Source of the DNA: a virus
Taxonomy: Duplodnaviria > Heunggongvirae > Uroviricota > Caudoviricetes
DNA: 24,534 nt
IMG/VR virus record: IMGVR_UViG_2548876935_000008
Direction: 5' to 3' (one strand)
This document shows positions 1 to 19,736 of this stretch, one piece after another; position 1 is the stretch's first letter, and every line of letters starts with the position of its first letter. Position numbers and translations under genes: made by a program. Under the pieces are notes generated by a model. It searched no databases. It saw only the letters and a list, made by a program, of their open reading frames with translations, and was not told the origin of the DNA.

Positions 1-159
1 GATACGGATTTTTCCTTTCGGCGGTAATCCGGAAAACTCAATATACACTTGCTCATCAACTTCAACAGCATCATCTGGCCATGAGTCAGCTTGCGTGTAA
101 TCCTCTTTCATCTCCAAGGGATAGAAAGAGTTTGTAGTCGCGGAATATATGTAATTCAT
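1..159 (-). CDS. Tail fibre assembly protein (P2 gpG-like chaperone), N-terminal part only; gene runs off the window start
   Basis: Minus-strand ATG at 159 (plus-strand 'cat' 157-159). Translation begins MNYIYSATTNSFYPLEMKEDYTQADSWPDDAVEVDEQVYIEFSGLPP..., resembling the conserved N-terminus of tail-fibre assembly proteins. Lies immediately downstream of the tail fibre gene, as in P2 (H then G). Confidence 0.55.
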   Translation of the reverse strand, partial: MNYIYSATTNSFYPLEMKEDYTQADSWPDDAVEVDEQVYIEFSGLPPKGKIRI

Positions 160-3435: not shown

Positions 3436-4010
3436 ACCGGGCCTCCGGTTGTATCGCCGCCTTTCAGGACGCCAGTATGCTGATGCGCATCAACCACAAT
3501 CCCGTTAGAGCTCATCGCTCCGCCGCCCTGGGTAACGCCACCATTGATCACCACTTCGCTGTTAATACGCGTGCGGTCAGCCTCCAGCACAAACTCACTG
3601 GTTTTCAGGGTGATATTGTCAGCGGCCTCAATGACCATTGATTTGATGCCCCTGACATACCAGCGCCCGGTGGCGGGTTCGTATTCAAACCAGCCGCCGT
3701 CCGGGTATTCCGTCACGTTGCCGTCCTCAGAGCCTGAAGGTGGCGGAAACTGGTTTGAGTAGACCGCAGGCAGGGCAAACGCGGTTTCCAGATTGCCGCC
3801 AAGGCTGAACAGCACAACCTGCTCACCCACAGACGGTTTCCACCAGGTGCGCGATTTGCCCGCGCGCAGTGTCAGCCAGTTAATCCAGTTGGTTTCGAGG
3901 TCGCCCGTTTTCACCCGACACAGCCAGTTTGCCCTGTCCACTTCGGTGACTACACCTGTGCGGATCAGGTTGGTGATAAGGCGCATGATTTCGGTTAATT
4001 GTGCGTTCAT
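3432..4010 (-). CDS. Baseplate spike / central hub protein (P2 gpV-like)
   Basis: 192 aa; N-terminus MNAQLTEIMRLITNLIRTGVVTEVD resembles P2 gpV (MN...IRTG...), followed by W..W.....G.SRTWW.PSVGEQV. Confidence 0.85.
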   Translation of the reverse strand: MNAQLTEIMRLITNLIRTGVVTEVDRANWLCRVKTGDLETNWINWLTLRAGKSRTWWKPSVGEQVVLFSLGGNLETAFALPAVYSNQFPPPSGSEDGNVTEYPDGGWFEYEPATGRWYVRGIKSMVIEAADNITLKTSEFVLEADRTRINSEVVINGGVTQGGGAMSSNGIVVDAHQHTGVLKGGDTTGGPV

Positions 4011-6560: not shown

Positions 6561-6764
6561 TCAGTCCCATAGCTGGACGGTCTGCACGGTGGTGGTTGTC
6601 GGAATGTCCGGCAGCTCCACCTGCAGCCCGTGAGGTAAAAAGGGGCCGTATTCGGCAAGCCCCGGATTTGCCTTCAGTACCTGCTCCGTGACACCCTGCG
6701 TGCGCCCGTAATGACGCCAGCAAAGCGCGTCCACCGTGTCATACTGATGCGCACGCACTTTCAT
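6561..6764 (-). CDS. Tail protein X (P2 gpX-like)
   Basis: 67 aa; MKVRAHQYDTVDALCWRHYGRTQGVTEQVLKANPGLAEYGPFLPHGLQVELPDIPT closely resembles P2 gpX (same length and motifs YGRT.GV.E.VL.ANPGLAE.G..LPHG..VELPD). Confidence 0.8.
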   Translation of the reverse strand: MKVRAHQYDTVDALCWRHYGRTQGVTEQVLKANPGLAEYGPFLPHGLQVELPDIPTTTTVQTVQLWD

Positions 6765-7323: not shown

Positions 7324-7974
7324 TCAGCGGCTGTCATTGCGCAGTCTGCGCTCCAGCTGCTGTTTGTCTTTTTTCACGCCACAGCGGGGATCGAGCTGTA
7401 ACGCATGGTTGAGATGATTAAGGGCGGAAGCCGGATTGCTTTCACTCAGGACAGCGCCAATCGCTTTATGCAGACGCGCCCGTGACTGGTCCGGCATATC
7501 CAGACCGTCTGTCAGCTCCAGCGTCTGCAGCAACAGATCGGCATCAAAGCCGGTGGCAGCAAGCATTGCGCTCTGCGCCGCGTCTGCCATTTCCTCTGCC
7601 AGCACGGTCTGCACGTTGCGGTTACCCAGCGGCATCACCCAGCCATGACGCAGGGCATGACGCCCGATCTCCAGCGCTCCGGCATAATCTCCGGCATCAA
7701 TGCGCCACAGCATCACGTACATCAGCACGTCATCCTGTTGAGCGCCTCCGGCAGCCAAGACACCCTCTGCCCAGGCGGCGTACTTCGGCAGCAGCTCCAC
7801 CTTGATTTCCGCTTTTTTGACCGTGGACTGAACGCCCTTGAGACGGCGGCGGTCTTCCGCCAGTTGCAGCAGCATCAGGTCATAGCCCGATGCGTGGCGA
7901 ACACTGCCGCCCTCGCGGGCGGCCTGTTCAGCCTGAACGCGCAGGCGATGCTGCCGTGCGGGACTCAGGCTCAT
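7324..7974 (-). CDS. Terminase small (endonuclease) subunit (P2 gpM-like)
   Basis: 216 aa ORF between capsid gene N and L, as in P2; sequence character consistent with gpM. Confidence 0.75.
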   Translation of the reverse strand: MSLSPARQHRLRVQAEQAAREGGSVRHASGYDLMLLQLAEDRRRLKGVQSTVKKAEIKVELLPKYAAWAEGVLAAGGAQQDDVLMYVMLWRIDAGDYAGALEIGRHALRHGWVMPLGNRNVQTVLAEEMADAAQSAMLAATGFDADLLLQTLELTDGLDMPDQSRARLHKAIGAVLSESNPASALNHLNHALQLDPRCGVKKDKQQLERRLRNDSR

Positions 7975-10028: not shown

Positions 10029-11795
10029 ATGAACACCACACTGACACCCGCAGATCTCGATCCCCGTCGGCAGGCCATGCTGCTGTACTTTCAGGGATAC
10101 CGCGTAGCCCGCATTGCTGAAATGCTGGGCGAGAAAGTTGCAACCGTTCACAGCTGGAAAAAACGCGACAAGTGGGGTGACTATGGGCCGCTGGATCAGA
10201 TGCAGCTCACCACCGCCGCACGCTACTGCCAGCTCATTATGAAGGAGCACAAAGAAGGGAAAGATGTCAAAGAGATTGACCTGCTGGCGCGCCAGTCGGA
10301 ACGCCACGCGCGGATCGGCAAGTTTAACAATGGCGGCAACGAAGCCGACTTAAACCCTAACGTCGCCAACCGCAACAAAGGCCCGCGCCGTCAGCCGGAA
10401 AAGAATGTCTTCACCGATGAACAGATTGAGAAGCTGGAAGAAATCTTCCATTCCTCCATGTTCAACTACCAGCGCCACTGGTGGGAAGCCGGAAAAACCA
10501 ACCGCATCCGCAATCTGCTGAAGTCACGCCAGATCGGCGCGACCTTTTACTTTGCCCGTGAAGCCCTGATTGACGCTCTGCTTACCGGACGTAACCAGAT
10601 TTTTCTTTCCGCCAGCAAGGCACAGGCCCACGTCTTCAAACAGTACATCATCGACTTTGCCAAAGAAGTGGAGGTGGAGCTGAAAGGCGATCCGATGGTG
10701 CTTCCCAACGGGGCCACACTGTATTTCCTCGGCACCAATGCCCGCACTGCCCAGAGTTACCACGGTAACCTGTATCTGGATGAATATTTCTGGATACCGA
10801 AATTCCAGGAGCTGCGCAAAGTGGCATCCGGTATGGCTATTCACAAAAAATGGCGACAAACCTATTTTTCCACGCCATCCAGCCTGACACACAGTGCTTA
10901 TCCGTTCTGGTCCGGTGCGCTGTTCAACCGTGGGCGCAACAAAGCCGATAAGGTGGACATCGACCTGTCCCACAACAATCTGGCCCCCGGCCTGCTGTGC
11001 GCAGACGGGCAATACCGCCAGATAGTCACCGTGGAAGATGCGGTGCGCGGCGGCTGTAACCTGTTCGACCTCGACCAGTTGCGCATGGAGTACAGCCCGG
11101 ACGAATACCAGAACCTGCTGATGTGTGAGTTCGTAGACGATCTCGCGTCCGTGTTCCCGCTCAGCGAGCTGCAGGCGTGCATGGTGGACAGCTGGGAAGT
11201 CTGGACCGACTTTCATGCACTGGCCCTGCGCCCGTTTGGCTGGCGCGAGGTGTGGATCGGTTATGACCCGGCAAAAGGTACGCAGAACGGCGACAGTGCC
11301 GGATGCGTTGTGGTGGCTCCGCCAGCCGTGCCGGGCGGTAAGTTCCGCATTCTTGAGCGTCACCAGTGGCGCGGGATGGACTTCCGCGCCCAGGCGGACG
11401 CCATCAAAAAACTGACCGAACAGTACAACGTGACCTATATCGGCATCGACTCGACCGGCGTCGGTCACGGGGTTTATGAGAACGTGAAAGCGTTCTTTCC
11501 TGCCGTCCGGGAGTTTGTCTACAACCCCAACGTTAAAAACGCGCTGGTACTCAAGGCCTACGACATTATCAGCCACCGCCGTCTGGAGTTTGACGCCGGG
11601 CACACCGACATTGCGCAATCATTTATGGCAATCCGTCGCGCCACCACCGCCAGCGGCAACCGCCCGACCTATGAAGCCAGCCGCAGCGAAGAAGCCAGCC
11701 ACGCCGATCTGGCCTGGGCAACGATGCACGCACTGTTTAACGAACCGCTGCAGGGCGAATCCGCCAATGCCAGCAATATTGTGGAGATTTTTTGA
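10029..11795 (+). CDS. Terminase large (ATPase) subunit (P2 gpP-like)
   Basis: 588 aa; length, position and sequence character match P2 gpP. Stop overlaps the Q start (ATGA). Confidence 0.9.
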   Translation: MNTTLTPADLDPRRQAMLLYFQGYRVARIAEMLGEKVATVHSWKKRDKWGDYGPLDQMQLTTAARYCQLIMKEHKEGKDVKEIDLLARQSERHARIGKFNNGGNEADLNPNVANRNKGPRRQPEKNVFTDEQIEKLEEIFHSSMFNYQRHWWEAGKTNRIRNLLKSRQIGATFYFAREALIDALLTGRNQIFLSASKAQAHVFKQYIIDFAKEVEVELKGDPMVLPNGATLYFLGTNARTAQSYHGNLYLDEYFWIPKFQELRKVASGMAIHKKWRQTYFSTPSSLTHSAYPFWSGALFNRGRNKADKVDIDLSHNNLAPGLLCADGQYRQIVTVEDAVRGGCNLFDLDQLRMEYSPDEYQNLLMCEFVDDLASVFPLSELQACMVDSWEVWTDFHALALRPFGWREVWIGYDPAKGTQNGDSAGCVVVAPPAVPGGKFRILERHQWRGMDFRAQADAIKKLTEQYNVTYIGIDSTGVGHGVYENVKAFFPAVREFVYNPNVKNALVLKAYDIISHRRLEFDAGHTDIAQSFMAIRRATTASGNRPTYEASRSEEASHADLAWATMHALFNEPLQGESANASNIVEIF

Positions 11796-12829
11796 TGGGA
11801 AAGAGTAAGAAGAACCGCGCTGCGGCGACGAATCAGATCCAGCTTAAAAGTCAAACTACAGCCGAAGCATTCAGCTTCGGCGATCCCGTTCCTGTTCTGG
11901 ACCGCCGAGAATTACTGGACTATGTGGAATGCGTACAGATGGACCGTTGGTATGAGCCGCCCGTCAGCTTTGACGGACTGGCGCGCACCTTCCGCGCTGC
12001 CGTGCATCACAGTTCCCCGATTGCAGTAAAGTGCAACATTCTGACCAGTACCTATATCCCTCACCCGCTGCTCAGCCAGCAGGCTTTTTCACGTTTTGTG
12101 CAGGACTACCTGGTATTTGGTAACGCCTACCTGGAGAAACGCACGAACCGCTTCGGTGAAGTTATCGCCCTTGAGCCTGCGCTGGCAAAATACACCCGAC
12201 GCGGGTTAGACCTAGATACCTACTGGTTTGTGCAATACGGTATGACAACCCAGCCGTATCAGTTCACGAAAGGCAGCATTTTTCATCTGATGGAACCGGA
12301 CATCAACCAGGAGATCTACGGCTTGCCCGGCTATCTTTCTGCCATTCCATCCGCCCTGCTCAACGAATCCGCCACGCTGTTCCGCCGTAAGTATTACATC
12401 AACGGCAGCCATGCAGGCTTCATCATGTACATGACCGACGCCGCGCAGAATCAGGAGGATGTGAACAACCTCCGCAACGCGATGAAAAGCGCCAAAGGTC
12501 CAGGCAACTTCCGCAACCTGTTTATGTACTCGCCTAACGGCAAAAAGGACGGGCTTCAGATCATTCCTCTGTCAGAAGTCGCGGCGAAGGATGAGTTTCT
12601 GAATATCAAAAATGTCAGTCGCGATGACATGATGGCAGCACACCGCGTACCGCCGCAAATGATGGGGATTATGCCGAATAATGTTGGGGGTTTTGGGGAT
12701 GTGGAGAAGGCGAGTCGAGTTTTTGTGCGAAATGAATTGAGGCCACTACAAAAGAGCCTATTAGAGCTGAACAACTGGTTAAAGGAGGATGTAATACATT
12801 TTGAGGATTATAACTTAGATATTCAATAA
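11792..12829 (+). CDS. Portal protein (P2 gpQ-like)
   Basis: 345 aa; length and position (after P, next to the cos side of the genome) match P2 gpQ. Confidence 0.9.
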   Translation: MMGKSKKNRAAATNQIQLKSQTTAEAFSFGDPVPVLDRRELLDYVECVQMDRWYEPPVSFDGLARTFRAAVHHSSPIAVKCNILTSTYIPHPLLSQQAFSRFVQDYLVFGNAYLEKRTNRFGEVIALEPALAKYTRRGLDLDTYWFVQYGMTTQPYQFTKGSIFHLMEPDINQEIYGLPGYLSAIPSALLNESATLFRRKYYINGSHAGFIMYMTDAAQNQEDVNNLRNAMKSAKGPGNFRNLFMYSPNGKKDGLQIIPLSEVAAKDEFLNIKNVSRDDMMAAHRVPPQMMGIMPNNVGGFGDVEKASRVFVRNELRPLQKSLLELNNWLKEDVIHFEDYNLDIQ

Positions 12830-12833
12830 TCTT

Positions 12834-12857
12834 AAAAACCTGCATATGCAGGTTTTT
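12834..12857. terminator. Bidirectional rho-independent terminator between convergent Q and the three-gene cassette
   Basis: AAAAA-CCTGCATATGCAGG-TTTTT: perfect palindromic stem flanked by an A-run and a T-run, so it reads as a hairpin plus U-tract on both strands. Confidence 0.6.
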
Positions 12858-12892
12858 ACATTATATAGTTATAAAACTAACAAAAATCATAT

Positions 12893-13558
12893 TCAAAGCT
12901 CTGAGTCTACAGGCTCATGATAAAGGTTTACAGGGTAGTGTATAACCTCATAATTAAGTTGACTAACAGTGTGAGTATGTTGACTGTAAAAAACCAATGG
13001 GTTTCTCTTACAAGGAGTTATCGAGATAGACTTACAAGCATGAATTCTTGGAGCCGATTTATCTAAATGAGCCTTCCACTTAGTCATCATTTCATTACAT
13101 TTTTTATTACGCGTATATATAATTAACCCACCACTTGCACTGTCTACAGTACCAGTGCTATATCGCTCAGTGAGTTGTGCATACCCTTTAAATAAATAAC
13201 TATATGAACCAGTGTGTTTTTTGGCCTCGCCATGCCAAGTAAATCTATTCAACTTTATTGTTATATCACAATGACCTCGTTGATTATTTTCATGATATGC
13301 TTCAATTCCCATATCTTTATTTTTTATATTTGCCAGTAAAATTAAAGTAAGCTGATCTTCTGTTAAATCAAAATTCAATTTATTTGAATTTTCCTCAATT
13401 GCCTGTACAGCAGAATCAAGCTCAATTCTTACAAACTGTTTGAAGTTCTCATACGACTGGAGAGCAAACCTAACGCGAGTAATAGAAGCATTGATACGCT
13501 GAAGAAAAATATCATTATCAATTTCAGCTAAACTCATTGGTGCAGACATTTTTAACAT
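12893..13558 (-). CDS. Hypothetical protein, cassette gene 3 (221 aa); possible PD-(D/E)xK-like nuclease motif
   Basis: AT-rich ORF; ATG overlaps the upstream stop (TGATG). Contains ...GHCDITIKLNRFTWHGEAKKH..., a D-x12-E-A-K arrangement reminiscent of restriction-endonuclease-fold active sites (inference only). Confidence 0.55.
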   Translation of the reverse strand: MLKMSAPMSLAEIDNDIFLQRINASITRVRFALQSYENFKQFVRIELDSAVQAIEENSNKLNFDLTEDQLTLILLANIKNKDMGIEAYHENNQRGHCDITIKLNRFTWHGEAKKHTGSYSYLFKGYAQLTERYSTGTVDSASGGLIIYTRNKKCNEMMTKWKAHLDKSAPRIHACKSISITPCKRNPLVFYSQHTHTVSQLNYEVIHYPVNLYHEPVDSEL

Positions 13559-13992
13559 CAGACAATATCCTTTAATTTAGATTCATCTAATGTAAAAAAA
13601 GGAAAGACGAAGGACTTATAGTCATACATAATCTCCCCTGTAAATGGGTTTACTAAAGATTGATTAATTTCAGCCTCTATAACATCTTCTAACTCAAGCT
13701 CAATAGGATCATGAAAATCATCAATAAACCAATAATTGAGTTTTAAAAACTCAACCTTTGGACTACAAAGAATTTGTATAGCTGGGTACACAACCTGCTC
13801 ATATGCTTCAGGTTGTATACATCCTTTATAACCATTAACGATACTAAATAAATCTTTATAACTCAGAGCTATATTAGGCGATTTCTTTGCTCTCACACCA
13901 ATTTCATCATACAAATAGCAAGCTAGCGCCCCTATATCAGGGCGCTCTGCACATATTTCTTTGATGATCTGGGGCATATCACCATCCTTCAT
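13558..13992 (-). CDS. Hypothetical acidic protein, cassette gene 2 (about 144 aa)
   Basis: ORF 13558..14004 as tracked uses a TTG; the in-frame ATG at 13992 is preceded by GGAG at good spacing. AT-rich; no recognisable motif. Confidence 0.55.
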   Translation of the reverse strand: MKDGDMPQIIKEICAERPDIGALACYLYDEIGVRAKKSPNIALSYKDLFSIVNGYKGCIQPEAYEQVVYPAIQILCSPKVEFLKLNYWFIDDFHDPIELELEDVIEAEINQSLVNPFTGEIMYDYKSFVFPFFTLDESKLKDIV

Positions 13993-14004
13993 TGCTGACT
14001 CCAA

Positions 14005-15111
14005 TTATAATATCAGCTTTGTGAGGGTTTCGAAATCATCTTTGGATATACATTTGCTTAATATAGCATAATTGACAGGAGAGCACCCACTACCACCTAA
14101 ATGTCTGCGTAATGTTCCTGGAATGATAAGCTCTACACTATCCGCCAATTGCAATTTTGGATTATTCCTATCTACTCTAATTCCAATACGATATAAACCA
14201 ATATTACCTACAGCTTTAATGCCCTCTTTATTAAACAGATCATCACGCAAGTCTTTCTTAGCCACATTTTTCTTTTCCTTATGAGTGGTTCCCTCATAAG
14301 TTAAAAATGACAAATCGAACACCTTATAACTTAAACTTGAATATGGCATTACATTTTGCTTGAAAATTGGCTCAATTAATGGATAAAAATCCTTTTCCGA
14401 TGAATTAAATTGATAACCTGCGCAATTATATAACTCACGAATAAAATTCGTTTTCGCAAAAACGATATTATCACCAACAACATTACCATTAGTATCAATT
14501 AATACATGGATTTTATTTGAAGCTGAATCTAATATACACACATCAAAACACTGACGTTTTTCTTTTCTCTTCGCAATGATTTCATCAAACTGTTTGTATG
14601 CTGCTAACTTTGACGGAGGGACTTTCTCTCTTACAACCAGCTCCCTGATAGATGAAAATACCAAAATAGACTGAGTATTTTGCTTAGAGTAATTAACAAG
14701 CTCAAGTTGATTTTTAATAGCATGCTGTAATTGAACATCATCAACAATCGTTTCGACTAATGATGTTGGTTGCTTCATCATATTCCATTGGAGAGCATAT
14801 CTATCATCAAGTAATTTAATTACTTGACTATCTACAGACAAACTAAATATTGCTTTTTCACCATAAACAACCTGCCCAAAGACTAAATCATTTACACTTG
14901 CAATGATTTTGTCAAATTTTTGCCTATCTTTCTTTTTAAAATCAATGAGGCTTTCTAGTATTTTGTCGTTTGTTGCTTCACGCCCTCTACCTGTAGGTAG
15001 CCCTAAAGAAGCAATAATTGGTCTGGCGATATGCCACGTAAAACGTTCAGTTAAGGCTAAGATCGACTTTAACTCAAAGTCAGAAAGCACCACTGGGACA
15101 CCACTTGTCAT
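14005..15111 (-). CDS. Hypothetical protein, cassette gene 1 (368 aa)
   Basis: Tracked ORF begins at a GTG (15120); the in-frame ATG at 15111 is preceded by AGGTG 6 nt upstream. AT-rich; no Walker A/P-loop seen; no recognised family. Confidence 0.6.
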   Translation of the reverse strand: MTSGVPVVLSDFELKSILALTERFTWHIARPIIASLGLPTGRGREATNDKILESLIDFKKKDRQKFDKIIASVNDLVFGQVVYGEKAIFSLSVDSQVIKLLDDRYALQWNMMKQPTSLVETIVDDVQLQHAIKNQLELVNYSKQNTQSILVFSSIRELVVREKVPPSKLAAYKQFDEIIAKRKEKRQCFDVCILDSASNKIHVLIDTNGNVVGDNIVFAKTNFIRELYNCAGYQFNSSEKDFYPLIEPIFKQNVMPYSSLSYKVFDLSFLTYEGTTHKEKKNVAKKDLRDDLFNKEGIKAVGNIGLYRIGIRVDRNNPKLQLADSVELIIPGTLRRHLGGSGCSPVNYAILSKCISKDDFETLTKLIL

Positions 15112-15271
15112 AACATGCACCTAGTCAACCCAAAAGCAATTGAAAATCGCTCTTGTCTTAATTTTTTCCATCAATATCTAACAAATTACCTTAATGTTGA
15201 AAAAGTTTGCAAGCCATTTGCGTCTAAAAAGTGACTTGACTCAATGTGTTACAAAGCTTAGCGAGCGCGCG

Positions 15272-15290
15272 CTCGTATCCCCGCCACGCC
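15272..15290 (-). other. Candidate cos site (cohesive-end region) of the P2/186-like phage
   Basis: Minus strand reads GGCGTGGCGGGGATACGAG. From memory, P2 and 186 cohesive ends begin GGCGAGGCGGGGAAAGCAC and GGCGTGGCGGGGAAAGCAT. Orientation relative to Q is as in P2. Adjacent perfect palindrome GCGAGCGCGCGCTCG at 15261..15275. Confidence 0.45.
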
Positions 15291-15339
15291 TGCCCGCTTT
15301 ATGTAGTAGTTTTCATGCAGGTGCATGATCTACGCAAAA

Positions 15340-15359
15340 GCCCGCCAGTTCTGGCGGGC
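15340..15359 (-). terminator. Rho-independent terminator downstream of the membrane-protein operon
   Basis: GCCCGCCAG-tt-CTGGCGGGC perfect stem; on the minus strand it is followed by TTTTGCG, just past the stop of the 280-aa ORF. Confidence 0.55.
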
Positions 15360-15407
15360 CTTAGCAAAAACGATCCTCAAACGATCATGCGATCTCATGC
15401 AGCATAG

Positions 15408-16250
15408 TCATGCACGATCATTTGACTCAGCATCTGCTGCACGCTTGCTGCGCGAAGATGCACTTTTACTACCAATCTTTCGACAGTTCTTTCTATCCCT
15501 GGCTTCATTTTCTTTAAATTTGTTATATGTCTCAGTATCAAAAAACGAAATTGTTTCAACCTCATCTTTTGGTATGAGCACACGGAAATCTTCGATATTA
15601 AGCCGAGACATTCCACTTATCACACCACTATCAAGATAATGTTGGTGATAGTTAGTCGTGATACTAATCGTTAGATCATCTTTATCCCGATATCCGCTTA
15701 ACATCGGGAGAAGTTCAAGGTGTTCTGAAAGCCCGTTTTCTAACGCCGGACAAGTAACAAGACCAACATAGATTTTGCGAGACGACAGAGTTGCTATGAT
15801 CGGAAACTGTCTTGCAGACGCTTCCATGAGTAATGATTCGAAAGCGTTATTACCCACAGCTTTAGCTAAGGCATCCCAGCGACGATCTCCACGTGATGTG
15901 CGTAACTTATTTCCAAAACCTGAAATCGCAGCGAGAACAATTGAAATCATAACCCATGCTATCTGTTTGATTTCATTTATTCTTTGAAGTTTGTCTTTCG
16001 ATGAAGACAACATGCCATTAAAACTGTCAGGTGTTAGATTCAAGGCATTAGCCAGCCAACGAAACCCTCCGCTGACGTTCAAAATAAAGGTGAAAAAACC
16101 GCCAAGGAGAAAAAAAACGATACCCCAGGCAGCCACAAAAAAATAAGCGTCCCAGCCGTTGGAACGCTTATATCGGTATCTTGTTGAAAGTGATAGGTTT
16201 ACATAAATAAAACCACTAACCAAAATCACTGCTAAAAGTAATGTTGCCAT
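15408..16250 (-). CDS. Hypothetical membrane protein (280 aa; about three N-terminal transmembrane helices plus a cytoplasmic domain)
   Basis: Hydrophobic segments MATLLLAVILVSGFIYV, FFVAAWGIVFFLLGGFFTFIL and IAWVMISIVLAAISGF; soluble C-terminal half of unknown fold. ATG overlaps the stop of the upstream 71-aa gene (TAATG). AT-rich. Confidence 0.6.
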   Translation of the reverse strand: MATLLLAVILVSGFIYVNLSLSTRYRYKRSNGWDAYFFVAAWGIVFFLLGGFFTFILNVSGGFRWLANALNLTPDSFNGMLSSSKDKLQRINEIKQIAWVMISIVLAAISGFGNKLRTSRGDRRWDALAKAVGNNAFESLLMEASARQFPIIATLSSRKIYVGLVTCPALENGLSEHLELLPMLSGYRDKDDLTISITTNYHQHYLDSGVISGMSRLNIEDFRVLIPKDEVETISFFDTETYNKFKENEARDRKNCRKIGSKSASSRSKRAADAESNDRA

Positions 16251-16465
16251 TATCTGGTTCTATTAGTTTTCTCTTTTACAGTGCTCGTTTTGATGCCTTC
16301 AAGCTTATCCATCTGTGCCTTGATGGCATCCATTGCTCTTTTGTTAGACAAGTCTACGGACACAAAACCATCTTTACTAAGATTGAGTTTGTCCTGGTTC
16401 TCTTTAAGAACCCTTGCCAGACGTTCAACTGGGTTACCCAGGCTAAATGCGGCGATGCTTGACAT
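16250..16465 (-). CDS. Hypothetical small protein (71 aa), translationally coupled to the membrane protein
   Basis: ATG at 16465 preceded by a strong Shine-Dalgarno (AAGGGGGAG); hydrophilic, Lys-rich; no recognised motif. Confidence 0.5.
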   Translation of the reverse strand: MSSIAAFSLGNPVERLARVLKENQDKLNLSKDGFVSVDLSNKRAMDAIKAQMDKLEGIKTSTVKEKTNRTR

Positions 16466-16735
16466 AACTCCCCCTTTTCACATGGCGCGGAAGTCTACAC
16501 TCCGACGCCTACAACCTCAACAGATTATCTTTAAAATTTAGACAACAATATCATCTGTTGATTTCGTTACTTAAACTTAAGTTCAATGCGCTCGATCATG
16601 CAAGTGGTTTCTTAAGAACTGTTAATTTCCTGGCATATATAGTGGTTAAGGTAACAAATTGACACTAACGCCTCGCATAGCTCGTTGTTCAACCTTGCTG
16701 ACGCCAGAAGCAAGTTCAGACGCCAGCAACGTTTC

Positions 16736-16969
16736 TTAATGCAGCCAGCTGTCGTCTTCCCACACCTTCTGCATAATTTTCATCACTTGCTTCCTTTCTT
16801 CGTCCAGTTGCAGTCCAGTCAGTTCCACACCGTTAGAGCTACCTTTGCGGATGCGAATTACCGTTTTTGGATATAGGGGGCGCAGATTGCGGTAAAGCTC
16901 GGATTCAAGGGCGTCCAGGGTAGACTGGCTAATCTTCTGCTCTTTATCGATCATTATTTCAATGCGCAT
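16736..16969 (-). CDS. dinI: DinI-family protein (DNA-damage-inducible protein I-like)
   Basis: ORF 16736..17041; start chosen at ATG 16969 (preceded by GAGGTGA). MRIEIMIDKEQKISQSTLDALESELYRNLRPLYPKTVIRIRKGSSNGVELTGLQLDEERKQVMKIMQKVWEDDSW resembles E. coli DinI (MRIEVTI...AL..EL.RR...FPD....V.......L.V.G...E.K..I..ILQE.WE..D.W). Confidence 0.7.
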   Translation of the reverse strand: MRIEIMIDKEQKISQSTLDALESELYRNLRPLYPKTVIRIRKGSSNGVELTGLQLDEERKQVMKIMQKVWEDDSWLH

Positions 16970-16979
16970 AAAAGTCACC

Positions 16980-17168
16980 TCAGCTGATGACATCCATTGA
17001 GCGGTTGTATTCGTGGGTTCTGATTTTTGCCATGAGTTCATCTGTCAGTTCAGAAACCCACTGCAAAGCCAGCCCCTTCTCTTCATCACTACACTCACTA
17101 GCCGCTACAAGCTTAAGAAAAAAATCAATGCGCTGGAGCTTCAAAGACTCCAAAAAATAGTCCTGCAT
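16980..17168 (-). CDS. Small SOS-regulated protein, putative Tum-like antirepressor (62 aa)
   Basis: ORF 16980..17270; start chosen at ATG 17168 (MQDYFLESLKLQ...), preceded by AGGAGGAAAG. Sits directly downstream of a LexA box and upstream of a DinI-like gene, the arrangement of the 186 tum operon. Function inferred from context only. Confidence 0.45.
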   Translation of the reverse strand: MQDYFLESLKLQRIDFFLKLVAASECSDEEKGLALQWVSELTDELMAKIRTHEYNRSMDVIS

Positions 17169-17211
17169 CTTTCCTCCTATGACACCACAAGCAATACTGT
17201 ATGTACAACCA

Positions 17212-17227
17212 CTGTTTATATTTACAG
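17212..17227. promoter_or_regulatory. LexA box (SOS operator), CTGT-N8-ACAG, in the promoter of the tum/dinI-like operon
   Basis: Seen directly: CTGTTTATATTTACAG, a perfect match to the CTGT-N8-ACAG consensus, 44-59 bp upstream of the ATG at 17168 and overlapping AT-rich -10-like hexamers. A partial second site (CTGTATGTACAACCAC) abuts it at 17197..17212. Confidence 0.6.
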
Positions 17228-17321
17228 TATATAATAATCTTACTGATGTAAAACGTTTTTTTACGTTCATCAGCCTGATATGCCTGGTATTATTAAGAGC
17301 ACGAATTGTTAACCCGCGTAA

Positions 17322-19736
17322 TTAATACAGGTTTCGCCACTTATCATCTTCCTGCAAACGCTGGTTCCGATAGAAGATACGCAGGCCTGCTCCTGACGGA
17401 ATACTGCCGCCGCGAAGGAGTAAATCGACCTCTTTCTCGCTGCCATCAAATCCTCTGGACTTCAGTTCATAGACGAGCTGCTGTCGCTGATGGTCTGTAA
17501 TTCGCTGTTTGTAGTCTTTACGCCGTTTCGGTTTCACCAGGCGTAACCTTGCAGCCAGTTCCCGGCGCTCTTTTTTGCTCATACTGTGCAGGTAATCGTG
17601 CAACTCCTTGTCATCCATGCGGGTAATGTCCGTCCTGGTATCCCCATCAGCTGATTTGTCTTTCCCTTGTTGGTTCAAATTTTCAGCAAGGGGACAGTTA
17701 TTGCCACGAGTCCAAGGGGCGCAAGCGCCCTGGTCGGCTGCCGCCTCCTGAACGTCAACGGCCTTACGAACTATTTTCCACTTCACTGCATGAGTGCAGA
17801 TCTTGCCCTCTGCAATGGGTGACCAGATGCCATAAATACGAATACCGTGATCACCATAGGCGGTCGGCTCTTCGTTGATTTCATAAGCGGTTCTGATCAA
17901 GTGATATTTGCGGGGAACCAGTACGCCGCCCTGCTTCATGATGTAGGTGGCAAAACAACCAGCATCAGCAGCAGCCAGGATGGCATCAAGGCGCGGGTTA
18001 TCCAGTACCGGCGCACCTGCTTTTTTGTCACCCTGTTGCCTTGCCGCCTGACCAGCCAGCAATCGCAGTTCACGGTAAGCCTGACGCCCCGGAATGCCAA
18101 AGAAGCGGAATTGCTGAACACGATGCAGAGACGCCCAGGCATTAACGTATTCAGCGTTATCACGCAGGGATTTACCCGTTTCCTTACTGATCTCGCCAGC
18201 CAGACCACGCCCGTCAATATTCTTACTGATATATTTCGCAATGTAGCTTGTCGGCGTTCCTTTGCGCGGGTTTATCAGCTCAGACTTAAAGCGTGGCCCC
18301 GTGTTATTGCCCAGCTCCTCGCGGTCTTCACGGATGGCAAACTTACGCAACAATGCAGTAATGGCGCGGCGGTCTTTTTTGCGCATGAAACACAACAGGT
18401 GCCAGTGAACTGTGCCGTCATGATGCGGCTCAGCCACCCGCACGCCATACCAGCGCAACCCGGCTTTGTGCATAGCCTTACGAAATGCAGCAAACATGCC
18501 GACCAGATAATCGCTGCTTTGTCTTACTGTCGCGTTGGTCCAGGTCGGGTTTGGCCTACCGTTATTTAGCGTGGAATGGAAACGTGACGGACAAGTGATG
18601 GTGTAGAAAACGGCGCAGTCACCACGCATTTCCGCGATAAGCTCCAGGCCTTTAACACAGGCCATCATCTCGTTGCGGCGATGCGCCGGGTTGCTGCTGC
18701 TGGCGTTTACCACATCCTCCATGTTCAGCGTGTCGCCGTCTTCGTTCACCAGTTCATGAGAACGGAAAAACTCCAGCGACTTACGGCGCTGCTCACGTTT
18801 ATGCATCACGGCTTCATAGCTGACATAGGGAGATGCTTTTTTGCTGACCAGGCAGACAGCACGCAACTGCTCTTCCCGCCATTCGCAACGCATCTTCCAT
18901 AATTTCCGATACCACCAGTCGGCGCACAGCATACGCGCCAGCGACCCCGGAATGAGTTCATAGGGCACGGGTTTACGGCGGTTTCTTTTCCGGCGGAGTT
19001 GCTCAAACGCAGGCGGTATGACATCCAGTCGCAGGGTTTCTGCTGCCACCTTTTCCCATGTCTTGCGGATTTCTTCTGGCTTAACGTCATCGGTGGCATA
19101 CAAATCACCACAAGCGGCATCAAGGCACATGCTCATATGCGCAGCGACAAGGATAGACAGGCGCTTCACCTGATCCTGACTCATTTCAGGCAGGATAAGC
19201 AGGCCATCCAGCCCTTCATGGCTTGCCATAAAGCGAAAAGAAGTGGATAGCTGACAGTCGCGGACATGCTCCAGTCGTTCCAGACATGGCTTAATCGTCT
19301 CACGCAAATAGCGGGAATAAGCCTTTGGCCTGCCCAGGCTGCTGAAATATTCAATACGTTGCATCAGCGGCTTGCTGATATGGGAAGGCTGGGCATTGAC
19401 GTCAGCCAGAATGACCATGTCTGGATTAAAACGCTGCTGCTCATGCGCCAGCTTTGCCCTGCTAATGAGCTTATCCTGCTCCATTTCGCGCTGGACAGGA
19501 TCACGGGATTCATTAAAGAAATAACGCTCCCAGACCTGATCACTCAGTGCCTCGCGGCGCAGTTGTTCCTGCTCGTTATCGGCAGCGTACAGAGTGATCA
19601 GGTTTGAAAGTGCAGAAACCGGCGCAACTTCCGCCGGGTCCTGATAAGGGTTAATAGCCTTTTTCGGGCTGTTCCATGAGAATGCTGCGGCGACCTCGTT
19701 AAAGCCGCTGCAGTTGTTCATATCATCATGGCTCAT
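17322..19736 (-). CDS. Replication initiation protein (P2 gpA-like rolling-circle endonuclease)
   Basis: 804 aa; position between the early-region genes and the cos-proximal cargo as in P2/186. Contains an HUH-type stretch ([10 protein letters not shown]). Stop of the upstream dam gene overlaps the start. Confidence 0.8.

What the first reader, a model, noticed from the sequence alone, without database searches (positions are those of the whole stretch)
15261..15290. Candidate cos site lying between the two cargo modules
The minus strand reads GGCGTGGCGGGGATACGAG, whose first 13 nt match the 186/P2 cohesive-end sequence as I recall it. It points toward Q exactly as the left end of P2 does, and it is adjacent to a perfect 15-bp palindrome (GCGAGCGCGCGCTCG). 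If correct, the three-gene cassette is the very left end of the packaged genome and the membrane module the very right end, so both accessory loci hug the packaging site.
Basis: partly seen in the sequence, partly recalled or inferred. Interest (0 to 1): 0.5.

Follow-up and report, generated by a model that had tools for sequence, protein, structure and literature searches.

The report
Prophage cos site, already known type

Summary
The minus strand at 15290..15272 reads GGCGTGGCGGGGATACGAG. This 19-mer is identical to the cos annotated at bases 1-19 of Salmonella phage SEN8. It is also identical to the cos mapped by read-start analysis/PhageTerm in the inducible E. coli HS prophage (Zünd 2021, Table S4). 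I confirmed the 19-mer at exactly those HS coordinates. The HS cos island is 141/151 identical to the window's, and its large terminase is 585/588 identical.

The 19-mer sits in a sharply bounded 151-bp conserved island, 15265-15415. The island aligns without gaps to the circularised cos junctions of P2, P4 and 186. In 115 related viral contigs, conservation collapses at both edges of the island. The portal gene Q always lies on one side and the replication gene A on the other, and variable cargo sits on both sides.

That cargo hugs cos is also published (Rousset 2022; Dodd and Egan 1996; Nakayama 1999).

One correction: the perfect palindrome is 14 bp (15262-15275), not 15. It overlaps the cohesive end by 4 nt, and only its GC core is conserved; 3 of 116 relatives carry the full length.

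Novelty: already known. Interest is low.

The parts
15272..15290 (-). 19-nt cohesive-end sequence (cosN equivalent), GGCGTGGCGGGGATACGAG. Predicted staggered nicks fall 5' of G15290 on the minus strand and between 15272 and 15271 on the plus strand, giving 19-nt 5' overhangs.
   Evidence: Sequence read. It is identical to SEN8 bases 1..19, annotated 'putative cos site', and to the E. coli HS phage cos mapped by start-site analysis/PhageTerm. It matches 186 at 15/19 and P2/P4 at 14/19. The nick positions are inferred from the 186 and P2 annotations.
15265..15415 (-). Whole conserved cos island: 125 bp on the right-end side of the cut plus 26 bp that include the cohesive end.
   Evidence: In the per-column consensus of 115 unique IMG/VR loci, conservation drops from about 0.9 to background at -126 and +27. 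The BLAST block is 15264-15416. The window island is 151/151 identical to database islands and has no private mutations. GC content is 55%, against 34% and 41% in the flanks.
15265..15271 (-). Conserved CGCGCGC box immediately after the cohesive end. P2 and 186 have TGCGCGC, and P4 has CGCGCGC.
   Evidence: In 114 species-level loci the box is TGCGCGC in 90 and CGCGCGC in 10.
15262..15275 (.). 14-bp perfect palindrome CGAGCGCGCGCTCG. It is a chance extension of the conserved GC core into variable DNA.
   Evidence: The full length is found in only 3 of 116 relatives.
15291..15319 (-). Nick-proximal part of the P2-family 55-bp core: TGCATGAAAAC...CATAAAGCGGGCA, ending at the cut.
   Evidence: The gap-free alignment gives 41/55 (P2), 42/55 (P4) and 43/55 (186) over -29..+26. 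The 55-bp core concept comes from Ziermann and Calendar 1990, as cited in PMC5694545.
15313..15413 (-). Cluster of five GCATGA/TGCAT repeats. Four are direct on the minus strand (15413-15408, 15400-15395, 15390-15385, 15318-15313) and one is inverted (15323-15328). They are candidate binding sites for the small terminase subunit (cosB-like).
   Evidence: Five of the window's 21 GCATGA copies lie within 101 bp, where about 0.09 is expected. TGCAT copies occupy the same aligned positions in P2, P4, 186, Fels-2 and SEN8. Binding by gpM is inferred and was not tested.
15337..15362 (-). Conserved GC-rich hairpin followed by UUUU inside the island. It may be the terminator of the right-end operon and/or a protein-binding or bending element.
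   Evidence: Folding gives -27.9 kcal/mol with z = -5.6. The hairpin is present in most Fels-2-type islands. 186 shares the inner CGCCAG..CTGGCG, P4 has a different-sequence inverted repeat at the same aligned position, and P2 has none. The simple terminator scan did not call it.
11792..12829 (+). Portal gene Q, convergent with the reading direction of the cohesive end.
   Evidence: Pfam Phage_portal hit. It is 327/345 identical to E. coli HS Q. Q lies downstream on the opposite strand in 86/86 related loci.
10029..11795 (+). Large terminase subunit gene P, the enzyme expected to cut this cos.
   Evidence: Pfam Terminase_6N, Terminase_6C and Terminase_5 hits. It is 585/588 identical to the E. 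coli HS prophage gpP.
7324..7974 (-). Small terminase subunit gene M.
   Evidence: Pfam Phage_term_smal hit, E = 2e-40.
12893..15120 (-). Left-end cargo slot: three ORFs of unknown function (221, 148 and 371 aa) between Q and cos.
   Evidence: GC content is 34%. There are no Pfam, NCBIfam or PADLOC hits, and the PHROG families are of unknown function. The distance from cos to Q ranges 154-3532 bp in relatives.
15408..16465 (-). Right-end cargo slot: a 280-aa protein with 2-3 N-terminal hydrophobic segments plus a 71-aa protein, between the DinI-like gene and cos.
   Evidence: The distance from the DinI-like gene to cos ranges 205-3211 bp in relatives. This module is absent in E. coli SA53-3, which has the same left cassette.

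Best explanation
This is the cos site of an apparently intact P2-family prophage (Peduoviridae, Fels-2/SEN8/E. coli HS type) in an E. coli-like host.

**Proposed mechanism**
- After excision and replication, the terminase recognises the 151-bp island. The terminase is the small subunit gpM (7324-7974) plus the large subunit gpP (10029-11795).
- Recognition most likely uses the TGCAT/GCATGA repeats and the AAAAC...AAGCGGGCA box on the right-end side.
- The terminase then makes two nicks 19 nt apart. One is 5' of G15290 on the minus strand. The other is between 15272 and 15271 on the plus strand.
- This yields linear virion DNA with 19-nt 5' overhangs, GGCGTGGCGGGGATACGAG at the left end. The ends re-anneal after injection.
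- The packaged genome therefore starts with the three-gene cassette, followed by Q. It ends with the membrane-protein module followed by 125 bp of cos island.

**Shown versus inferred**
- Shown here: sequence identity and homology, position, orientation, an intact packaging gene set, and the sharp limits of conservation.
- Shown by others: cutting at this exact 19-mer in E. coli HS.
- Inferred: cutting in this particular prophage, which subsite binds gpM, and the role of the hairpin.
For: **Identity to annotated or mapped cos sites**
- The 19-mer is identical to the SEN8 cos.
- It is identical to the cos mapped by start-site analysis/PhageTerm in E. coli HS at 926016-926034. I verified the coordinates.
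- The HS island is 141/151 identical to the window's, and HS gpP is 585/588 identical.

**Homology to the reference cos regions**
- The region aligns colinearly and without gaps to the circularised P2, P4 and 186 cos junctions.
- Shared elements are the TGCAT repeats, AAAAC, AAGCGGGC(A/G) at the cut, the 19-nt end and GCGCGC.
- Over the 55-bp core the match is 41-43/55.
- The records of SEN8, EtG, fiAA91-ss (annotated cosR) and P37 begin or end exactly at the predicted cut positions.

**Conservation and context**
- In 115 unique viral loci the island is conserved only from -125 to +26.
- Q lies downstream in 86/86 loci and gpA upstream in 85/85.
- The junction 22-mer is found in more than 120 species-level Enterobacterales genome contigs.
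- The window island has no private mutations.
- The genes P, Q, M, O, N and L are intact.
- The 13-mer occurs only once in the window.
Against: - No virion DNA or read data exist for this window, so cutting here is inferred.
- The SEN8 annotation is itself by similarity.
- Only one experimental mapping of this exact 19-mer was found, in a supplementary table.
- The last 6 nt (TACGAG) differ from P2 and 186 (AAGCAC and AAGCAT). The exact 3' limit of the overhang therefore rests on SEN8, HS and colinearity rather than on the classical phages.
- I could not read Ziermann and Calendar 1990 directly.
Confidence: 0.95

Rival explanations
1. The site is a true cos homologue that is not used. The prophage would be cryptic or defective outside the window, so the site is never cut in this strain.
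For: Only 24.5 kb of the prophage is visible. The integrase ORF runs off the window end. Tail, lysis and regulatory genes outside the window were not examined. Truncated relatives exist, for example E. coli S3, which has partial portal and tail genes next to the same cos and cassette.
Against: Every packaging and head gene in the window is full length. The island is 151/151 identical to islands in other contigs and has no private changes. gpP is 99.5% identical to that of the inducible HS phage.
Confidence: 0.05
2. The conserved island is kept for another function, and the real cut site lies elsewhere. Candidate functions are a transcription terminator or regulatory element for the right-end operon, or a recombination site used for cargo exchange.
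For: A strong hairpin with a U-run sits in the island. The island separates two cargo slots that assort independently.
Against: The hairpin covers only 26 of the 151 bp, and P2 lacks it. The most conserved columns are the 19-mer and its immediate flanks. Phage records start and end at this site. Read-start mapping in HS places cos here. There is no second cos-like sequence in the window and no Rfam family match.
Confidence: 0.02
3. The 14-bp palindrome is itself a functional recognition element, for example a symmetric terminase or host-factor site at the bottom-strand nick.
For: It straddles the predicted plus-strand nick between 15272 and 15271. Its GC core is conserved across the family.
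Against: The outer 3 bp lie in non-conserved DNA. Only 3 of 116 relatives have 14 bp, and the modal length is 8-10 bp. P2 and 186 have only GCGCGC there.
Confidence: 0.04

Closest known systems
cos of E. coli HS 'phage 1' (Zünd et al. 2021, Microbiome 9:77, Suppl. Table S4) and of Salmonella phage SEN8 (KT630647.2), with Fels-2
   Same: The 19-mer GGCGTGGCGGGGATACGAG is identical. The same 151-bp island is present (141/151 identical to HS). It occupies the same position between the DinI/gpA side and Q. The large terminase is near-identical (585/588).
   Different: About 10 substitutions fall at polymorphic island positions. The cargo genes on both sides of the island are different.
cos of coliphage 186 (NC_001317, bases 1-19 plus the right end)
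   Same: The first 13 nt of the cohesive end are identical and the whole end matches 15/19. The box just before the cut is cataaagYgggca. Also shared are the TGCAT repeats, the AAAAC box, the CGCCAG..CTGGCG inverted repeat, the GCGCGC after the end, and the orientation toward the portal gene W.
   Different: The last 6 nt differ (TACGAG versus AAGCAT). 186 has no cargo between cos and the portal gene; the gap is about 177 bp.
cos of P2 and of its satellite P4 (Ziermann and Calendar 1990; 55-bp shared core)
   Same: The core aligns without gaps at 41/55 (P2) and 42/55 (P4). The overhang is a 19-nt 5' end. The site lies next to variable accessory genes: old/tin in P2 and the defence hotspot in P4.
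   Different: The window has T rather than A at position 5, and the last 6 nt differ. P2 lacks the internal hairpin. P2 cargo lies only on the right-end side, whereas here cargo lies on both sides.
Cos-adjacent hotspot of P2-like phages between gpA and gpQ (Rousset et al. 2022; Odegrip 2006; Dodd and Egan 1996; Nakayama 1999)
   Same: The locus and the logic are the same. The window's three-gene cassette (WP_021580613/4/5) is listed in Rousset Table S5 as 'hypothetical' genes.
   Different: I saw no functional test of this particular cassette, and I did not test it here.
Lambda cos (cosQ-cosN-cosB)
   Same: It works in the same way. The terminase makes staggered nicks at a nicking site, and an adjacent array of repeats serves for small-subunit binding.
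   Different: Sequence homology to lambda was not examined here. From textbook knowledge, lambda has a 12-nt overhang rather than 19, and its binding repeats lie on the opposite side relative to the head genes. From memory of the literature, P2 packages from monomeric circles.

Membership tests
P2-family cos site | A 19-nt cohesive-end sequence of the GGCG(A/T)GGCGGGGA... type | tested here: met
   The match is 19/19 to SEN8 and E. coli HS, 15/19 to 186, and 14/19 to P2 and P4.
P2-family cos site | A conserved ~55-bp core around the cut, shared by P2 and P4 (Ziermann and Calendar 1990, as cited in PMC5694545) | tested here: met
   The gap-free match over -29..+26 is 41/55 (P2), 42/55 (P4) and 43/55 (186).
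P2-family cos site | Extended right-end-side sequence with TGCAT repeats at conserved positions | tested here: met
   The repeats align in all six phages. Five GCATGA copies fall within 101 bp.
P2-family cos site | Location between the end of the portal gene (convergent) and the right end of the early/replication region, with the 19-mer reading toward the portal gene | tested here: met
   Q is downstream in 86/86 related loci and gpA is upstream in 85/85.
P2-family cos site | Cognate gpM/gpP terminase encoded by the same element | tested here: met
   Pfam Phage_term_smal hit for gpM, and Terminase_5, Terminase_6N and Terminase_6C hits for gpP.
P2-family cos site | Virion DNA ends carry complementary 19-nt 5' overhangs produced at this site | not testable with these tools
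   There are no reads or virion DNA for this window. The cut is published for the identical 19-mer in E. coli HS by start-site analysis/PhageTerm.
Cos-adjacent cargo/defence hotspot of P2-like phages (Rousset 2022) | Highly variable gene content between gpA and gpQ next to cos | tested here: met
   The distance from cos to Q is 154-3532 bp and from the DinI-like gene to cos is 205-3211 bp. The same left cassette occurs with different right modules. Both flanks are low in GC.
Cos-adjacent cargo/defence hotspot of P2-like phages (Rousset 2022) | Cargo confers anti-phage defence | not tested
   There are no PADLOC, Pfam or NCBIfam hits, and the PHROG families are of unknown function.

The most novel reading that the evidence does not exclude
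The TACGAG ending of the cohesive end may be a distinct packaging or annealing specificity class that P4-like satellites do not share, which would limit piracy or mixed-end joining.

- In my sample, 0 of 126 TACGAG-type loci lie next to a Psu homologue.
- The GAGCAT variant lies next to Psu in 21 of 25 loci, and TAGCAT occurs in both element types.
- The sampling is uneven and the Psu probe was short, so this is only a lead.

A related reading concerns the sharply bounded island with two independently assorting cargo slots. It fits the published speculation that cos ends themselves seed cargo exchange.
Probability: 0.1. Interest if true: 0.45.

Novelty: already known. Interest (0 to 1): 0.1.

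Why it matters
Placing cos fixes the physical ends of the packaged genome. It shows that both uncharacterised cargo modules sit in the known cos-flanking hotspot of P2-like phages, which is where anti-phage systems are commonly found. That helps annotation and helps prioritise the cargo genes for study. It does not add a new kind of element or mechanism.

Tried and rejected
- **Chance match:** rejected. The 13-mer is unique in the window, and the whole 151-bp block is homologous to known cos regions.
- **Structured RNA family:** Rfam gave only sub-threshold noise across 14900-15700.
- **Terminator scan:** the simple scan did not call the island hairpin. Folding shows it is strong, but its role stays open.
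- **The 15-bp palindrome as a conserved feature:** rejected.
- **Decayed cos:** rejected, because the island has no private mutations.
- **Primary literature:** Ziermann and Calendar 1990 is not held in the library. Two review-type papers gave no detail on P2 cos subsites or packaging direction. Which end is packaged first is therefore left unstated.
- **Cargo function:** Pfam, NCBIfam and PADLOC gave nothing.
- **P4-like satellites with the TACGAG end:** none found. Three odd loci looked at by eye were an IS-disrupted helper, a divergent island, and a probably chimeric MAG contig.

Full report
**1. What is in the sequence**

The window is a P2-like prophage drawn in reverse of the P2 map.
- The large terminase gene P (10029-11795) and the portal gene Q (11792-12829) are on the + strand.
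- The scaffold, capsid, small terminase and head-completion genes O, N, M and L are on the - strand upstream.
- A gpA replication gene (17322-19736), a Dam methylase, a CI-type repressor and an integrase follow.

On the minus strand, 15290..15272 reads GGCGTGGCGGGGATACGAG, followed by CGCGCGC. The 13-mer GGCGTGGCGGGGA is unique in the window.

The stated 15-nt string exists at 15261-15275, but the perfect palindrome is the 14-bp CGAGCGCGCGCTCG at 15262-15275. It overlaps the last four bases of the 19-mer.

**2. Comparison with reference phages**

P2 (NC_001895) and 186 (NC_001317) are deposited from their cohesive ends, and bases 1-19 are annotated as cos.
- P2 starts GGCGAGGCGGGGAAAGCAC TGCGCGC.
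- 186 starts GGCGTGGCGGGGAAAGCAT TGCGCGC.

I joined the right and left ends of P2, 186 and P4 to rebuild their circular junctions. The window's minus strand aligns to them without gaps over about 150 bp. Shared elements are:
- three distal TGCAT repeats;
- a proximal ATGCA-NN-TGCAT(G/T)AAAAC box;
- AAG(C/T)GGGC(A/G) ending exactly at the cut;
- the 19-nt end, matching 186 at 15/19 and P2/P4 at 14/19;
- GCGCGC just after the end.

Over the 55-bp core (-29..+26) the window matches P2, P4 and 186 at 41, 42 and 43 of 55 positions. The 55-bp core of P2-family cos regions is attributed to Ziermann and Calendar 1990 in PMC5694545. I could not read the original paper.

**3. Closer relatives and published mapping**

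BLAST of the region against phage records finds only window 15264-15416, at 92-96% identity, in Klebsiella, Escherichia and Salmonella P2-like phages including Fels-2. Neither flank matches.

Several phage records begin or end at the predicted cut positions.
- Salmonella phage SEN8 begins with the identical 19-mer, annotated 'putative cos site'. Its record ends with ...AGAAAGCGGGCA, the base before the predicted cut. The genome announcement states this cos sequence.
- Records of EtG, fiAA91-ss (with an annotated cosR) and Yersinia phage P37 also begin or end at those positions.

The decisive evidence is in Zünd et al. 2021 (Microbiome 9:77), Supplementary Table S4. It lists the cos of the inducible E. 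coli HS prophage as 5'-GGCGTGGCGGGGATACGAG-3' at 926016-926034, determined by read start-site analysis and PhageTerm.
- I found the 19-mer at exactly those coordinates of NC_009800.
- The HS island is 141/151 identical to the window's.
- The HS large terminase is 585/588 identical.

**4. Limits of the element and its surroundings**

An exact-match scan of IMG/VR returned at least 120 contigs with the 19-mer. Among 115 unique sequences, the column consensus is about 0.8-1.0 from -125 to +26 and falls to background at both edges. In window coordinates this island is 15415..15265.

The window island is identical to islands already in the collection. All of its minority bases are common alleles.

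In these loci the gene order around cos is fixed.
- Q is always downstream on the opposite strand (86/86).
- gpA is always upstream on the same strand (85/85).
- The distance from cos to Q ranges from 154 to 3532 bp.
- The distance from the DinI-like gene to cos ranges from 205 to 3211 bp.

Cargo of variable size is therefore inserted on both sides of the island. In E. coli SA53-3 the same three-gene cassette and cos are followed directly by the DinI-like gene. In E. coli S3 they are followed by a different right-hand module. The two slots thus assort independently.

A 22-mer across the cut occurs in more than 120 species-level Enterobacterales genomes. There the last six bases of the cohesive end vary:

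| Last 6 nt | Loci |
|---|---|
| TAGCAT | 57 |
| GAGCAT | 23 |
| AAGCAT (the 186 type) | 18 |
| TACGAG (this window) | 15 |

Conservation again stops after GCGCGC.

**5. Internal anatomy**

- **Repeats.** Five of the window's 21 GCATGA copies lie within 15313-15413, four direct and one inverted. About 0.09 would be expected there by chance. Their positions are conserved across P2, P4, 186, Fels-2 and SEN8. This makes them the best candidates for small-terminase binding, which is an inference.
- **Hairpin.** The hairpin at 15337-15362 (minus strand) folds at -27.9 kcal/mol with z = -5.6 and is followed by UUUU. 186 shares the inner CGCCAG..CTGGCG. P4 has a different inverted repeat at the same aligned position, and P2 has none. 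It may terminate the right-end operon, bind a protein, or both. This is unresolved.
- **Palindrome.** Only the 8-bp GCGCGCGC core is conserved. The full 14 bp occur in 3 of 116 relatives, so the extension in this window is fortuitous.

**6. Interpretation**

This is the cos site of a Fels-2/SEN8/HS-type P2-family prophage.
- Terminase (gpM plus gpP) is expected to nick 5' of G15290 on the minus strand and between 15272 and 15271 on the plus strand. This gives 19-nt 5' overhangs.
- The packaged genome then begins with the three-gene cassette. It ends with the module at 15408-16465 plus 125 bp of island.
- The stop codon of the 280-aa protein (15408-15410) lies within the outermost TGCATGA repeat.
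- I do not state which end enters the capsid first, because I found no source for it.

**7. Comparison with what is known, and novelty**

- The exact cohesive end is published.
- The cos architecture is that of P2, P4 and 186.
- The clustering of accessory or defence genes next to cos between gpA and gpQ is published: Rousset 2022, and the cosL-Q slot since Dodd and Egan 1996 and Nakayama 1999, as cited in PMC5694545.
- The window's cassette proteins (WP_021580613/4/5) appear in Rousset's Table S5 as hypotheticals.

The finding is therefore correct and already known. Its value is for annotation.

**8. Residual leads**

The cargo proteins have no Pfam, NCBIfam or PADLOC match and belong to PHROGs of unknown function.

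Among the sampled loci, cos variants differ in the element type they sit beside:

| Last 6 nt | Next to a P4 Psu homologue | Next to Q or A |
|---|---|---|
| GAGCAT | 21 of 25 | 0 |
| TAGCAT | 7 | 29 |
| TACGAG | 0 of 126 | 118 |

This hints at a partition of cos variants between helper phages and satellites. The sampling is uneven, however, and the Psu probe was only 86 aa.

Noticed in passing
window 12893-15120 (- strand): A three-gene cassette (221, 148 and 371 aa) at 34% GC sits in the cos-Q slot. It has no Pfam, NCBIfam or PADLOC hit, and its PHROGs (9664, 11490, 12777) are of unknown function. The proteins equal WP_021580615/4/3, which Rousset 2022 Table S5 lists as hypotheticals. It is a candidate uncharacterised defence or accessory system.
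   Followed up: partly
window 15408-16465 (- strand): The right-end module comprises a 280-aa protein with 2-3 N-terminal hydrophobic segments (phrog_3630, unknown function) and a 71-aa protein (phrog_9843). The stop codon of the 280-aa ORF lies inside the outermost TGCATGA repeat of the cos island. A homologue sits at the same place in IMG/VR locus L032.
   Followed up: partly
window 15337-15362: A conserved hairpin sits inside the cos island. The Fels-2 type and 186 share the inner CGCCAG-N4-CTGGCG. P4 has a different-sequence inverted repeat at the same aligned position, and P2 has none. The loop flips between GAAC and GTTC among relatives.
   Followed up: partly
loci L130-L249 (genome-contig scan) and L010-L129: Cohesive-end variants partition by element type. 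GAGCAT lies next to a P4 Psu homologue in 21/25 loci and never next to Q or A. TAGCAT lies next to both (7 Psu, 29 Q/A). TACGAG lies next to Q or A in 118/126 and never next to Psu. The sampling is uneven and the Psu probe covered only 86 aa.
   Followed up: partly
L083 (IMGVR_UViG_3300011853_000021) 6704-6722 (+) and 3447-3465 (-): One viral contig carries two copies of the 19-mer in opposite orientation, about 3.2 kb apart. This could be a misassembly, two adjacent elements, or an inversion between cos sites.
   Followed up: no
L201 (CAWJKF010000013.1, labelled uncultured Chloroflexia MAG): A divergent cos island with the same 19-mer but AGCGCGT after it lies on a contig whose other half is high-GC. 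This is probably a chimeric or contaminated MAG contig. There is no Q, A or Psu homologue nearby.
   Followed up: partly
L032 (IMGVR_UViG_3300013991_000001) about 1840-2960: IS3-family-like transposase ORFs are inserted immediately after cos in the left cargo slot of a related phage.
   Followed up: no
window 16736-17041 and 16980-17270 (- strand): The mechanical ORF for the DinI-like protein (101 aa) overlaps the next ORF. RefSeq relatives annotate a 77-aa DinI-like protein (234 nt), so the real start is probably about 16969.
   Followed up: no
E. coli genome search: Parts of this cos-flanking region are found in 1281 of 5426 complete E. coli genomes, but no genome in the collection covers 80% or more of 12830-17300. 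This exact pairing of left and right cargo is therefore rare or absent there. A similar seven-gene arrangement is listed for NZ_AIAQ01000001 in Rousset Table S5.
   Followed up: partly
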